From Tubiluchus corallicola (taxonomy: Eukaryota; Animalia; Priapulida), in NCBI GenBank assembly GCA_030141605.1, contig JAQGDQ010002247.1:1-6441 (forward strand): a stretch of DNA of 6,441 bases, written 5' to 3'. Both the position numbers and the translations under genes were made by a program. Positions 1 through 6,441 of the stretch are shown piece by piece. The first letter of the stretch is position 1. Each line of letters opens with the position of its first letter. A model generated the notes under the pieces. That model had not been told where the DNA came from. It was given only the letters and a program-made list of their open reading frames with translations, and made no database searches.

Positions 1-8
1 CTATTGCT

Positions 9-2468
9 ATATAGTGAGTGATAGGTGCATAGTTGGAGGTGACATGAACGGACATGTAGGAAGTGGAAATAATGCAATAAGACGGATTCATGGTGGAAAT
101 TCATATGGAGAGGGAAATGGAAACAAAATAATCGACGTGGCATTAGCCTTTGACTTGGTGATAGGAAATACCATATTCTGCAAGAAAAATGAACACCTAA
201 TAACCTACCGTAGTGGGGATAGAGAAAGCCAGATAGACTTCCTACTCTACGGACGGAGAGACATCAAAGAGATAAGAAATTGCAAGGTTATACCAGGAGA
301 CCACGTAGCAGCACAACACCGCCTGATGGTTATGGATCTCACCATAGCTGTTACACGTAGGCAGAAAAGGAAAGTCATGACGGAGAAAAGGATTAAATGG
401 TTCAAACTAAAAGAGCAGAGACTTAACCAACTCTTTAAAGACAGATTCCTCAGAGAGGTGGACTACGAAATGGAAGAAATAAACGAATGGTGGAACAGGC
501 TGAGTGAAAATATTATAAGGACGGGAAAAGAAGTCCTCTGGGAAAGTAGTGGTAAAATATGGGAAAACAGAGAAACATGGTGGTTTGGAGAAGAGGTGCA
601 GCAGAAAGTAAAAGAGAAGAAAATGGCAAAGAAAAGATGGGAAGAAACCAAGTTGGACAGGGACAGAGAGTATTACAAACAGTGTTGCAAGGAGACGAAA
701 AGAACTGTAGCTGTAGCAAAAGCGGAGGCGTATGACAACCTTTATGAAGAGTTGGACACCAAGGAAGGACAGGGGAGAGTTTTCAAGTTGGTGAAGCTGA
801 GAAATAAGAATACAAAGGACATTAGACATATAAGGCAGATCAAAGATGAAAGGGGGCAAGTAATACGAAAAGAAAGCGATGTCCTGAGGAGGTGGAAGGA
901 ATACTACGAGAAGCTGCTGAACGAGGAAAATGAAAGACTGGTTAGGGATGATGGAGAACCGAATGAACTGGAGGTAACAGGGGTGGCAAGACAGGAGGTG
1001 GAGTTAGCATTTAAGAAAATGAAAAATGGCAAATCTACGGGACCGGACGGAATACCGGTGGAAGTTTGGAAAGCCTTAGGAGAAGAAGGAATTGACATAC
1101 TGCACCAACTGATGAGAGAAATAGTGGAGAGAGAGGTAATACCGGAAAAATGGAGGGAAAGTACTCTGATACCGATTTTTAAAGAGAAGGGAGACATCCA
1201 GGACTGCGGAAATTATCAGGGGATTAAACTGATGTCCCACACCCTGAAACTGTTCGAAAGAATTCTGGATAATAGATTGAGACAGGTGGTACACATAGGA
1301 CGGCAACAGATTGGATTCATGAAGGGACTTGGAACGGTTGACGGTATATTCACACTTCGACAGAATATAGAGAAACACCAGGAAAAGCAAAGGGCACTAC
1401 ACATAGCTTTCATAGACCTAGAGAAAGCATATGATAGGGTACCACGGCAAGAAGTGTGGAGAGGTCTGAGGGAGAGAGGAGTGCCAGAAAAATATGTAAG
1501 AATAGTTCAAGAATGCTACAAGAACGTGACAACTAAAGTCCGGAGTACAGTTGGTATAACAGACAGTTTCCAAGTAAAAGTCGGCTTACATCAAGGATCG
1601 GCACTAAGCCCCCTACTGTTCAACATAGTGTTTGATGTCATCACAGAGAGTGTAAGGGGAAATCCACCATGGTGTGTGCTGTATGCGGATGACATCGCTA
1701 TAGTGGCTGAGAGTAGAGAAATACTGGAAGGAAAGTTAGAAGCATGGAGAGCCGCTTTGGAGAGCAGAGGAATGAGGATAAGTAGATCCAAAACGGAGTA
1801 CCTTACGACAGACATGAATGGAAACCAACGAGAAACAATAAGACTGAATGGGGCAGAGTTGAAAAGAGTAAAGACCTTTAAGTATCTGGGTTCAATGATA
1901 GACGAGACTGCAGGAATGGAAAAGGAGGTGAATTTCAGGATTCAGTGTGGTTGGAATAACTGGCGAAAAGTTTCAGGGGTGATATGCGATAAGAGGATTC
2001 CAGCGAGACTTAAGGGTAAAGTTCACAAAGCAGTGGTCAGACCTGCCCTAATATATGGGCTGGAAGCAGCACCCCTAAAGAAGACCGAGGAGAAGAAAAT
2101 GGATGTGGCGGAGATGAGGATGTTGAGATGGATAGTGGGAGTAACAAGAAGGGACAAAATCAGGAATAGTAATATTAGAGGAACAGTGAAAGTAGTGGAA
2201 GCCTCGAAATAGATACAAGAGGCAAGATTTAGATGGTATGGGCACCTGAGAAGAAGAGTCGGGGAAGATCACGTGGGAAGGGAGGTCATGGAAATGGAAG
2301 TGCTGGGAAATAGAAGAAGAGGACGACCCAAGCTGAGATGGTTCGAATGTATTAACGGAGACCTTAGAGAGAAGAACATAAATGTAGAGATGGCCAACAA
2401 CAGGAATGCATGGAGACGACTTATTCACAACGGCGACCCCGCATAGGGAAAAGCTGAGAAGAAGAAGA
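9..2468 (+). mobile_element. RTE-clade non-LTR retrotransposon (LINE), 5'-incomplete, copy A
   Basis: Single long frame with the C-terminal part of an APE-type endonuclease (GGDMNGHVG, TY..SQIDFLL, QHRLMV), then RT motifs (GPDGIP, PIFKEKGD, NYQGIKLMSH, FIDLEKAYDRV, QGSALSPLLF, YADD at 1682-1693, FKYLGS). RTE-type C-terminus (RWYGHL..RRRGRPKLRW), very short 3' UTR and (AGA/GAA)4 tail at 2457-2468. The 5' boundary is approximate. Confidence 0.95.
14..2446 (+). pseudogene. RTE endonuclease/reverse transcriptase ORF with premature stop and missing N-terminus
   Basis: ORF 14..2212 ends at TAG 2210-2212, but the same frame continues IQEARFRWYGHLRRR...LIHNGDPA to TAG 2444-2446. It begins mid-endonuclease, so the GTG at 14 is unlikely to be a real start. 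Confidence 0.9.
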
Positions 2469-3124
2469 TTGCTCTATGTGTAGTGCGCATGCGCGTTAAA
2501 ATAATACACACCAGTTAGAGGGTACAGAAGACGACGTTTTGCGTACTCTATTGCTCTGTGTGTAGTGCGCATGCGCGTTAAAATAATACACACCAGTTAG
2601 AGGGTACAAAAGACGACGTTTTGCGTACTCTATTGCTCTATGTGTAGTGCGCATGCGCGTTAAAATAATACACACCAGTTAGAGGGTACAAAAGACGACG
2701 TTTTGCGTACTCTATTGCTCTATGTGTAGTGCGCATGCGCGTTAAAATAATACACACCAGTTAGCGGGTACAGAAGACGACGTTTTGCGTACTCTATTGC
2801 TCTGTGTGTAGTGCGCATGCGCGTTAAAATAATACACACCAGTTAGAGGGTACAAAAGACGACGTTTTGCGTACTCTATTGCTCTGTGTGTAGTGCGCAT
2901 GCGCGTTAAAATAATACACACCAGTTAGAGGGTACAAAAGACGACGTTTTGCGTACTCTATTGCTCTATGTCTAGTGCGCATGCGCGTTAAAATAATACA
3001 CACCAGTTAGAGGGTACAGAAGACGACGTTTTGCGTACTCTATTGCTCTATGTGTAGTGCGCATGCGCGTTAAAATAATACACACCAGTTAGAGGGTACA
3101 GAAGACGACGTTTTGCGTACTCCA
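2469..3124. repeat. Tandem array, 8 x 82 bp (left)
   Basis: Units start at 2469, 2551, 2633, 2715, 2797, 2879, 2961, 3043. Consensus ttgctctRtgtgtagtgcgcatgcgcgttaaaataatacacaccagttagagggtacaRaagacgacgttttgcgtactcta. No indels and no spacers. Confidence 0.98.
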
Positions 3125-3230
3125 TTTCTCCATTTAATTCCCAACATTGTCCAGTCATGTAATAATCAAGATTGGCCCTGCTGGTGCCCCCTTGCGTACG
3201 AATCTGGTCCACCCATCTTGGTGCACAAAC
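3086..3230 (-). CDS. Internal exon of integrin alpha-like gene (beta-propeller), 145 nt, phase 0 to phase 1
   Basis: Acceptor ctgttcag|GTT at 3231/3230. Translates VCAPRWVDQIRTQGGTSRANLDYYMTGQCWELNGEMEYAKRRLLYPLT+G. The CAP..G.C pattern follows QWLG in integrin alphas. Donor CTG|gtgtgt at 3086/3085 lies inside repeat unit 8, and an in-frame TAG follows shortly after. Splices in frame to the 3663-3500 exon across a 269-nt GT-AG intron. Confidence 0.82.
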
Positions 3231-3499
3231 CTGAACAGTTTAATAATTTTGAAGTTTATGAGAGTCCAGATAATTCCTTTCTTGTTCTTGATTGTGGTTA
3301 TTGTAGTGAAGACTTTCAGAAACCATTTTGAACATGATCTTATTTACTACTGCACAACTCTAGCTATGAAGAAGTTCTGGAGGTAATTGCTAAGACACTA
3401 GATCAAGTAGAATACTGGTGAACTTTATTTTTATAGTTCATTAATTAATATAGTTAATCATTAATAACACTATACATCACGAAGCACGCTATTTCATAC

Positions 3500-3663
3500 C
3501 GTAATTTTTCCCAGCACATCATCCTGCCTAACAGCAATACTTGCTCCTAACCACTGGTAGTCCTTCTTGTTCCAATAAGACGTCTCATGGACAGATATCG
3601 TACAGACGTCACCTGATGGCACATTGCAAGGAATTTGTCCAGGGAGTGGACAGCATGTATTAC
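3500..3663 (-). CDS. Internal exon of integrin alpha-like gene, 164 nt, phase 1 to phase 0
   Basis: Acceptor ttttcttgcacag| at 3664/3663 and donor ACG|gtatga at 3500/3499. Peptide xNTCCPLPGQIPCNVPSGDVCTISVHETSYWNKKDYQWLGASIAVRQDDVLGKIT contains the integrin alpha K..QWLG.S motif. Part of ORF 3494..3706. Confidence 0.85.
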
Positions 3664-3798
3664 CTGTGCAAGAAAAGTTCATCATCGCAAAAACAATCGG
3701 TAACATTTCACGATATTGTGTAAGTAAAGTTATTGAACTATGAATTTATTTTCACACATCAAAATACAATATCAAACACATTAACAAACTTTAAATAA

Positions 3799-4078
3799 AA
3801 TAATTTGAGTAGTGCGAGGTGAGTGTACAACCATACGTTTATTAACACACTCACCTTATTTAAATGAAAAAATGATTATAGTTATGCATGCTTCTGTAGA
3901 TAACTTAATGTAAATAAGGATGAAGTAAATGATGTAATAATTTGAGTAGTGCGAGGTGAGTGTACGACCATACGGTCATTAACACACTCGCCTTATTTAA
4001 ATGAAAAAATGATTATAGTTATGCATGCTTCTGTAGATAACTTAATGTAAATAAGGATGAAGTAAATGATGTAATAAT
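3799..4078. repeat. Direct tandem duplication, 2 x 137 bp, each with a hairpin
   Basis: 3799-3935 and 3936-4072 (plus aataat to 4078) differ at 4 positions. Each contains aggtgagtgt-N20-acactcRcct. Confidence 0.95.
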
Positions 4079-4211
4079 AGCAATGATATAAGAGCAATAA
4101 ACCTGAAAGTTGAGAAAGGAAAACATAATATGTAATTACGACCTTGAGTGAGCCTTAAAGAGTGAAATTTTTTTTTAAATAGTTACGAATATGAATTATG
4201 TGATTATCTGT

Positions 4212-4609
4212 CAATGCACCACTTACTTGTATTACAATGCACCATATTGCTTACTTGTATATACAATGATATACAATGCACCACTTACTTGTATTACAAT
4301 GCACCATATTACTTACCTGTATATACAAGGCACAACTTACTTGTATTACAATGCACCATATTGTTTACTTGTATATACAATGATATACAATGCACCACTT
4401 ACTTGTATTACAATGCACCACATTACTTACTTGTATATACAATGATATACAATGCAGCACTTACTTGTATTACAATGCACCATATTACTTACTTGTATAT
4501 ACAATGATATACAATGCAGCACTTACTTTTTTACAATGCACCATATTGCTTACTTGTATATACAATGATATACAATGCACCATATTACTTACTTGTATAT
4601 ACAATGATA
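4212..4609. repeat. Compound AT-rich minisatellite with ~62-bp higher-order unit
   Basis: Built from related sub-units acaatgcaccacttacttgtatt (23 bp), acaatgcaccatattRcttacttgtatat (29 bp) and acaatgatat (10 bp). caatgcaccactt recurs at 4212 and 4274; some cycles drop a sub-unit. Confidence 0.93.
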
Positions 4610-4610
4610 G

Positions 4611-5270
4611 AAGTGGAGAAATGGAGTACGCAAAACGTCGTCTTCTACCCTCTAACTGGTGTATTATTTTAACGCGCATGTGCACTACACATAGAGCAAT
4701 AGAGTACGCAAAACGTCGTCTTTTGTACCCTCTAACTGGTGTGTATTATTTTAACGCGCATGCGCACTAGACATAGAGCAATAGAGTACGCAAAACGTCG
4801 TCTTTTGTACCCTCTAACTGGTGTGTATTATTTTAACGCGCATGCGCACTACACATAGAGCAATAGAGTACGCAAAACGTCGTCTTTTGTACCCTCTAAC
4901 TGTGTATTATTTTAACGCGCATGCGCACTACACACAGAGCAATAGAGTACGCAAAACGTCGTCTTCTGTACCCGCTAACTGGTGTGTATTATTTTAACGC
5001 GCATGCGCACTACACATAGAGCAATAGAGTACGCAAAACGTCGTCTTTTGTACCCTCTAACTGGTGTGTATTATTTTAACGCGCATGCGCACTACACATA
5101 GAGCAATAGAGTACGCAAAACGTCGTCTTTTGTACCCTCTAACTGGTGTGTATTATTTTAACGCGCATGCGCACTACACACAGAGCAATAGAGTACGCAA
5201 AACGTCGTCTTCTGTACCCTCTAACTGGTGTGTATTATTTTAACGCGCATGCGCACTACACATAGAGCAA
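4611..5270. repeat. Inverted copy of the 8 x 82-bp array plus ~11 bp of adjacent integrin exon sequence
   Basis: Reverse complement of 2469-3135. Unit boundaries at 5270, 5188, 5106, 5024, 4942, 4863, 4781, 4699. Unit 5 has a 3-bp deletion and unit 8 has two 2-bp deletions. Confidence 0.97.
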
Positions 5271-6441
5271 TCTTCTTCTTCCCAGCTTTTCCCTATGCGG
5301 GGTCGCCATTGTGAATAAGTCTTCTCCATGCATTCCTGTTGTTGGCCATCTCTTCATTTATGTTCTTCTCTCTAAGGTCTCCGTTAATACATTCAAACCA
5401 TCTCAGCTTGGGTCGTCCTCTTCTTCTATTTCCCAGCACTTCCATTTCCATGTCCTCCCTTCCCGTATGATCTTCCCCGACTCTTCTTCTCAGGTGCCCA
5501 TACCATCGCAATCTTGCCTCTTGTATCTTTCGAGGCTTCCACTACTTTCACTGTTCCTCTAATATTACTATTCCTGATTTTATCCCTTCTTGTTACTCCC
5601 ACCATCCATCTCAACATCCTCATCTCCGCCACATCCATTTTCTTCTCTTCGGTCTTCTTTAGAGGTGCTGCTTCCAGCCCATATATTAGGGCGGGTCTGA
5701 CCACTGCTTTGTGAACTTTACCTTTAAGTCTCGCTGGAATCCTCTTATCGCATATCACACCCGAAACTTTTCGCCAGTTATTCCAACCACACTGAATCCT
5801 GAAATTCACCTCCTTTTCCATTCCTGCAGTCTCGTCTATCATTGAACCCAGATACTTAAAGGTCTTTACTCTTTTCAACTCTGCCCCGTTCAATCTTATT
5901 GTTTCTCGTTGGTCCCCATTCATGTCTGTCGTAAGATACTCCGTTTTGGATCTACTAATCCTCATTCCTCTGCTCTCCAATGCGGCTCTCCATGCTTCTA
6001 ATTTTCCTTCCAGTGTTTCTCTACTCTCAGCCACTATAGCGATGTCATCCGCATACAAACACCATGGTGGATTTCCCCTTACACTCTCTGTGATGACATC
6101 AAACACTATGTTGAACAGTAGGGGGCTTAGTGCCGATCCTTGATGTAAGCCGACTTTTACTTGGAAACTGTCTGTTATGCCAACTGTACTCCGGACTTTA
6201 GTTGTCACGTTCTTGTAGCATTCTTGGACTATTCTTACATATTTTTCTGGCACTCCTCTCTCCCTCAGACCTCTCCACACTTCTTGCCGTGGTACCCTAT
6301 CATATGCTTTCTCTAGGTCTATGAAAGCTATATGTAGTGCCCTTTGCTTTTCCTGGTGTTTCTCTATATTCTGTCGAAGTGTGAATATACCGTCAACCGT
6401 TCCAAGTCCCTTCATGAATCCCAACTGTTGCCGTCCTATGT
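5271..6441 (-). mobile_element. RTE-clade non-LTR retrotransposon, copy B (runs off the right edge)
   Basis: Reverse complement of 1293-2468 at roughly 96-97% identity (manual). (GAA)n tail at 5271-5281, stop at 5293-5295, YADD at 6044-6055. Confidence 0.95.
5293..6441 (-). pseudogene. RTE reverse transcriptase ORF, frameshifted
   Basis: ORFs 5426..6424 and 5293..5511 are one RT frame split by a 2-bp deletion near 5527-5530. There is also an in-frame 3-bp loss just before YADD (WCLYADD vs WCVLYADD). Confidence 0.9.

What the first reader, a model, noticed from the sequence alone, without database searches (positions are those of the whole stretch)
1293..6441. Paradox: identical RTE-array junction and array haplotype, but RTE bodies diverged under purifying selection
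Seen: both RTEs end gaagaaga|ttgctctatg at the same base and are followed by exactly 8 units. Rare variants match by position (unit 4 ttagCggg, unit 7 gtCtagt), which says one duplicated block. Yet manual comparison of ~1.15 kb of RT frame gives about 22 synonymous differences versus 8 amino-acid-changing codons. Knowledge: dead copies diverging neutrally accumulate more replacement than silent changes, so this pattern marks separate active lineages. Inference, alternatives: (a) sequence-specific targeting of this repeat by an RTE family; (b) 3' transduction with template switching; (c) duplication followed by gene conversion from another family member; (d) assembly chimera.
Basis: partly seen in the sequence, partly recalled or inferred. 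Interest (0 to 1): 0.72.

Follow-up and report, generated by a model that had tools for sequence, protein, structure and literature searches.

The report
Mirror-image retrotransposon, likely assembly artefact
A dead jumping gene with a short repeat array appears twice, mirror-wise, with matching arrays but different gene bodies; public sequence data of what is likely the same species show only one array and many unrelated insertion sites, so the second copy is likely an assembly error filled in from other copies of the same family, not a new targeting trick.

Summary
In detail: both arms share the RTE|array junction and array order, yet the bodies differ by 23 silent changes versus 8 altered codons (dN/dS 0.11). 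The paradox has an ordinary reading.

Targeting is refuted: in four public runs the family's 3' ends run into unrelated flanks. Arm B carries the family-majority base at all 22 listed arm-difference sites (of 34); arm A is a divergent dead copy.

In sample S1, which shows the window's spacer alleles, the array-flank contig of arm A is unbroken in two runs, with no fork for arm B's end. Array depth is 3.2-4.0x single copy, against 4.35 expected for one array and 7.75 for two. All five deletions fall on arm B, two beside sites where A and family disagree.

Best reading (0.55): arm B is a mirror copy from an inverted chimeric read, its RTE body overwritten by other family copies. Main rival (0.3): a real, young, private inverted duplication with template switch or gene conversion. 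Evidence is contigs, not reads; arm A's body is not confirmed in S1.

The parts
1..2467 (+). RTE-like LINE copy A (5' end outside the window); single ORF 2-2446 with RT domain, in-frame stop at 2210-2212; 3' UTR of about 20 nt ending in GAA repeats. Divergent dead copy.
   Evidence: (RVT_1 E=2e-35)
2468..3122 (+). Array A: 8 units of 82 bp starting exactly at the RTE tail
3123..3132 (+). 10-nt tail, 7 of 10 like the unit junction; end of the block shared with arm B. Junction to the flank is present in sample S1 (contig 3093-3394 in X1 and X2).
3133..4613 (.). Spacer, 1,481 nt: single-copy stretches, a high-copy interspersed repeat from 3734 with a 137-bp tandem, and a 62-bp array 4212-4609 joined to arm B by 4 nt (4610-4613)
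4614..5271 (-). Tail plus array B: mirror copy of array A with 3 substitutions and 3 short deletions; its end is not seen in sample S1
5272..6441 (-). RTE body B (runs off the window): family-majority alleles at all 22 listed sites, plus a 3-nt and a 2-nt deletion

Best explanation
One dead RTE-type retrotransposon followed by an 8 x 82-bp array appears twice in inverted orientation, and the second arm (B) is likely an assembly artefact: probably an inverted chimeric (fold-back) read mirrored the array and RTE end, and the mirrored RTE body was then likely overwritten in consensus or polishing by reads from the roughly ten other long copies of the family. Only the RTE part has paralogues that can overwrite it, so the array keeps the local haplotype while the body takes family alleles right up to the family's 3' end. 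The silent excess is ordinary: copy A comes from a different source lineage than the family majority. Shown: the arm differences, their polarity, mixed 3' flanks, one array's worth of depth and one array end in S1. Inferred: the chimeric read, the polishing step, and that S1 represents the assembled haplotype.
For: (1) At the 22 of 34 arm-difference sites listed, the B base is the majority in all four runs (median share 0.99-1.0, minimum 0.54-0.95). (2) The last difference lies at 2457, 10 nt before the array; loose ends in 8 X1 contigs show the B-type base there, so the change of identity coincides with the end of family homology. (3) In X1 and X2 the contig 3093-3394 runs unbroken from unit 8 into A's flank; three 31-mers (starts 3100-3102) are shared by the A and B ends and should fork if B's end existed at like depth; X2's depth in bins 3069-3132 is explained to the decimal by just two contigs. 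(4) X2 unit contig depth 500 is 4.0x or 3.2x the flanking 125/157; expected 4.35 for one array, 7.75 for two. (5) At all 13 substitution and 2 single-contig indel sites listed in single-copy spacer 3144-3719, at least one S1 run shows the window's allele. (6) All 5 deletions are on B (sign test P=0.06); the two in the body touch sites where the arms or A and family differ (P about 0.014, post hoc). (7) Inverted chimeras with spacers under 10 kb are the commonest amplification chimera (PMC9984789, passages), and polishers overcorrect repeats (PMC12016036, passages).
Against: Only Logan contigs were available, no reads; contigs drop rare variants, so absence of B's end is indirect, and 130 loose-end rows were not shown. 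S1 holds only 0.40-0.52 of the window's words and is not shown to be the assembled individual. A's own body alleles have zero depth in all four runs at 4 of 22 sites and in X2 at 13 of 22, so arm A's body is not confirmed either, and no listed contig bridges RTE and array. B seems to hold private synonymous bases (1555, 1756, 1849; inferred from contig mismatch counts), which suits one real donor copy better than a plain majority. A and B share base 1352 against the family. No microhomology can be read at B's junction. Library type and any amplification step are not on record. Depth is a rough measure; B on one haplotype only would predict about 6x, not far from the upper bin values (about 695/125).
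Confidence: 0.55

Rival explanations
1. Real, young inverted duplication private to the assembled individual or haplotype: a break or stalled fork in the 62-bp array folded back, copied tail and array, then switched at the GAA tail to another RTE copy; or one body was later replaced by non-allelic gene conversion.
For: Matching array order; B looks like one family member with a few private silent bases; patchy divergence, 3 of 363 nt at 1313-1675 versus 29 of 787 at 1676-2467, P=0.006; LINE-cut ends do form fold-backs and inverted duplications in human cells (bioRxiv 10.1101/2024.12.14.628481, passages).
Against: No B end and one array's depth in S1, which shows the window's spacer alleles; arrays already differ at 6 places, odd for an event too young to be shared; a conversion tract would have to end within 10 nt of the end of homology.
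Confidence: 0.3
2. RTE plus array plus tail moves as one unit by 3' transduction, with reverse transcriptase switching to a different RTE RNA at the tail.
For: The block ends at the same base in two unrelated flanks; the array starts exactly at the RTE tail. In X4 the flank contig starts at 3131 with 19 unlike letters before it and no unit is covered.
Against: No second array end or source array in S1; no GAA or A-rich tail after the block; two insertions 1.5 kb apart in mirror orientation would be a coincidence; X4's 19 letters may be adapter (adapter-like loose ends of 18-21 nt occur in X4; label recalled) and X4 has holes in single-copy DNA.
Confidence: 0.07
3. The family targets this repeat and inserted twice at the same base.
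For: Same junction on both arms.
Against: Family 3' ends run into mixed flanks in all four runs (agreement 0.45-0.49); unit depth is about one array; position-matched rare variants need block copying, not two insertions.
Confidence: 0.02

Closest known systems
Inverted chimeras / palindromic reads in long-read assemblies (PMC9984789 and PMC6218980, passages; PMC12870357, search listing only)
   Same: Mirror arms with a short (1.5 kb) spacer; second junction not seen in other data.
   Different: Arms are not identical; an overwriting step is needed. Amplification of this sample is unknown; no 5-8 nt overlap can be read.
Polishing overcorrection of repeat copies (PMC12016036, passages)
   Same: One copy takes paralogue alleles only where paralogues exist.
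   Different: B seems to keep a few private silent bases and one A-type base.
Dead-on-arrival non-LTR copies from different active lineages (PMC1626080, passages)
   Same: Third-position excess between copies reflects constrained source lineages, plus neutral decay after insertion (A has replacements at conserved L, D, M, L, E and a stop).
   Different: None; it explains the dN/dS fully.
LINE-induced fold-back and inverted duplication (bioRxiv 10.1101/2024.12.14.628481, passages)
   Same: Inverted duplication next to a LINE insertion.
   Different: Described for human L1 with small hairpins; here the spacer is 1.5 kb and the LINE body differs.
RTE-clade LINEs
   Same: Single APE-RT ORF of about 990 aa in relatives, very short 3' UTR with a short-repeat tail.
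   Different: Closest database protein is unnamed and 80% identical; named hits are fish and psyllid proteins at 44-56%. Clade not tested by tree.

Membership tests
RTE-clade non-LTR retrotransposon | RT domain in one long ORF | tested here: met
   RVT_1 E=2e-35 and 9e-31; frame 2-2446 with one stop
RTE-clade non-LTR retrotransposon | N-terminal AP endonuclease in the same ORF | tested here: inconclusive
   Window part scores below cut-off (E=0.019); P0001 (80% identical) has PF03372 and PF14529; the window starts at P0001 residue 94
RTE-clade non-LTR retrotransposon | No C-terminal zinc knuckle; short 3' UTR with short-repeat tail (features recalled; plant RTE tails in PMC3747384 passages) | tested here: met
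   ORF ends like the relatives', 1 Cys in the last 150 aa of 6 of 6 relatives checked; about 20 nt UTR ending in GAA repeats
RTE-clade non-LTR retrotransposon | RT tree placement with reference RTEs | not tested
   No named RTE reference was fetched; the label rests on anatomy and recall
Site-specific non-LTR elements (R2/Tx1-like behaviour) | Most copies share one target flank | tested here: not met
   Mixed flanks at 2468 in 4 of 4 runs
3' transduction | Source locus plus daughter copies, new tail after the transduced DNA | tested here: not met
   One array end, one array's depth in S1; no tail after 3132/4614
3' transduction | Target-site duplication around the whole unit | not testable with these tools
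   5' ends lie outside the window; no genome held
Inverted chimera artefact | Spacer under 10 kb | tested here: met
   1,481 nt; range from PMC9984789 passages
Inverted chimera artefact | Junction absent from other data of the same haplotype | tested here: inconclusive
   No fork and one-array depth in X1 and X2, but contigs only and S1 not shown to be the source
Inverted chimera artefact | Short overlap at the junction; support by a single read | not testable with these tools
   True sequence beyond 4613 unknown; no raw reads offered

The most novel reading that the evidence does not exclude
The structure is real: an RTE insertion spawned a private 82-bp minisatellite in exact phase with its tail, and the array then moved with a different family member's body by a template switch at the GAA tail, so RTE copies can swap bodies while keeping a captured 3' cargo.
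Probability: 0.08. Interest if true: 0.55.

Novelty: not a real feature. Interest (0 to 1): 0.15.

Why it matters
If the best reading holds, it is a useful warning: a mirrored read plus consensus from paralogues can forge a convincing purifying-selection signal between two 'copies' of one locus, so palindromes in this assembly need read support. If arm B is real, it is a clean natural case of body exchange between retrotransposon copies, a known kind of event. The array's exact phase with the RTE tail is a small open question in either case.

Tried and rejected
No whole genome is held, so family members could not be collected or treed. Exact-pattern scans of metagenome contigs for the unit and for the RTE 3' end found 0 loci. 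Rfam on 2200-5500: one chance-level hit, MIR810 E=0.83. No RNA holder listed. X4 shows no cover of the unit, but it also has holes in single-copy spacer, so this is not used as evidence of an empty allele; its 19 unlike letters before 3131 may be adapter. The unit has no meaningful match to the RTE body or spacer (best local scores 16-26), so it is not derived from them. A mutational signature such as CpG decay does not explain the silent excess: a type-matched simulation falls far short, and neutral decay at A's replacement rate predicts 2-4 silent changes, not 15. Look-ups of earlier scan notes near this place, by sequence, and by artefact words returned nothing. Two paper searches for retrotransposon-generated long-unit arrays returned 0 papers; one for long RTE target-site duplications returned 1 review; these are narrow searches and do not show absence from print. 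No supplements were read.

Full report
Anatomy. The window starts and ends inside an RTE-like LINE. Copy A (1-2467, +) has one frame with an RT domain, a stop at 2444-2446 and a 3' UTR of about 20 nt ending in GAA repeats. Eight 82-bp units (2468-3122) and a 10-nt tail (3123-3132) follow. After a 1,481-nt spacer, the same tail, array and RTE appear inverted (4614-6441). The closest of 120 listed proteins is unnamed, 987 aa, 80% identical, with endonuclease and RT domains. The RTE label rests on anatomy and recall; no tree was built.

Observation. It is confirmed and beyond chance. The bodies differ at 34 of 1,170 nt, 23 synonymous versus 8 altered codons, omega 0.11 (0.04-0.26), P=3e-9. The arrays differ at 3 substitutions in about 660 nt (P=0.0002 against the body), and their order match has P=0.0006. 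Both frames are broken at the same codon: a stop in A and a 2-nt deletion in B. All five deletions in the comparison are on B.

Family context. Four public DNA runs from two samples hold 0.36-0.52 of the window's words; all are contigs. Laid on 1200-2549, they show about 8-13 times single-copy depth over the 5' body in X1 and X2 (27 in X4) and thousands of times near the 3' end. At 2468, 21, 28, 7 and 24 contigs leave into unrelated flanks (agreement 0.45-0.49). The family is therefore not site-specific.

Polarity. The table listed 22 of the 34 arm-difference sites (40 rows were hidden), and the B base is the majority at all 22 in all four runs. On A's side are 15 silent changes, 7 replacement bases and the stop. 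Relatives' proteins confirm that A is the changed copy at conserved L, D, M, K, L and E, and B at V2273. Neutral decay predicts 2-4 silent changes, not 15. So A is a dead copy from another source lineage, the known pattern for non-LTR copies (PMC1626080, passages). From contig mismatch counts, 1555, 1756 and 1849 appear private to B (inferred). Base 1352 is shared by both arms against the family.

How many arrays exist? Laid on 3005-3935, single-copy depth is about 8-10 (X1), 125-157 (X2), 6 (X3) and 8 (X4). X1 and X2 each have one contig, 3093-3394, running from unit 8 into A's flank, so this junction is real in S1. If B's end were present, three shared 31-mers would make a fork at 3132; there is none. 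X2's depth over 3069-3132 equals exactly two contigs (468.95 versus 468.9; 531.3 versus 531.3). The unit contig's depth is 3.2-4.0 times single copy, against 4.35 expected for array A alone and 7.75 for both. At each of the 13 substitution and 2 single-contig indel sites listed in the single-copy spacer, at least one S1 run has the window's allele, so S1 plausibly holds this haplotype. The tool warns that the best holder may be the source sample, so this is not independent support.

Mechanism. The simplest account is that B is not in the genome. An inverted chimeric read mirrored tail, array and RTE end (PMC9984789 and PMC6218980, passages), and reads of other family copies then set the consensus wherever they align (PMC12016036, passages). 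This predicts family alleles up to the last base of family homology (last difference 10 nt before the array), an array that keeps the local order, and indels at contested columns (2 of 2 body deletions, P about 0.014, post hoc). These steps are inferred; I give them 0.55.

Limits. No raw reads were available. A's body alleles are missing from contigs at 4 of 22 sites in all runs and 13 of 22 in X2. That is expected if single-copy bubbles are dropped, but it means the true body at this locus could be B-like and A the foreign one. No listed contig bridges RTE and array. A real private duplication with template switch or conversion stays at 0.3 (LINE-linked fold-backs: bioRxiv 10.1101/2024.12.14.628481, passages), transduction at 0.07 and targeting at 0.02.

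Open detail. The array begins exactly at the RTE tail and ends after a whole number of units plus a 10-nt tail that is 7 of 10 like the unit junction. This suggests, without a test, that the array grew from target-site DNA at or after insertion.

Host. Earlier notes on other pieces of this genome suggest a priapulid worm; I did not check this.

Verdict. The pattern is a real sequence pattern in the assembly with ordinary causes, probably artefactual. Interest 0.15.

Noticed in passing
window 2010-2467: Depth rises from about 10x single copy in the 5' body to about 6,700x at the 3' end in X2, with a joint skipping 2133-2306 in all four runs: likely many short 5'-truncated copies or a deleted non-autonomous partner sharing the RTE 3' end.
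   Followed up: no
window 3734-4078: Very high-copy interspersed repeat (up to 1.39 million depth versus 157 in X2) with a sharp left boundary at 3734 into mixed flanks and an internal 137-bp tandem that recurs in all four runs; may be a Helentron- or MITE-like element with internal repeats (label recalled, untested).
   Followed up: no
window 3365-3402: Short high-copy repeat fragment with mixed left flanks in X1, X2 and X4.
   Followed up: no
window 2468 and 3123-3132: Array is in exact phase with the RTE tail and ends in a 7-of-10 copy of its unit junction; possible amplified target-site sequence.
   Followed up: partly
window 4212-4609: AT-rich 62-bp array built of 23- and 39-bp subunits; arm B joins it through 4 unexplained bases.
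   Followed up: no
window 3144-3719: Runs of one sample differ from each other at about 15 sites in 580 nt of single-copy spacer, which suggests high heterozygosity or a pooled sample.
   Followed up: partly
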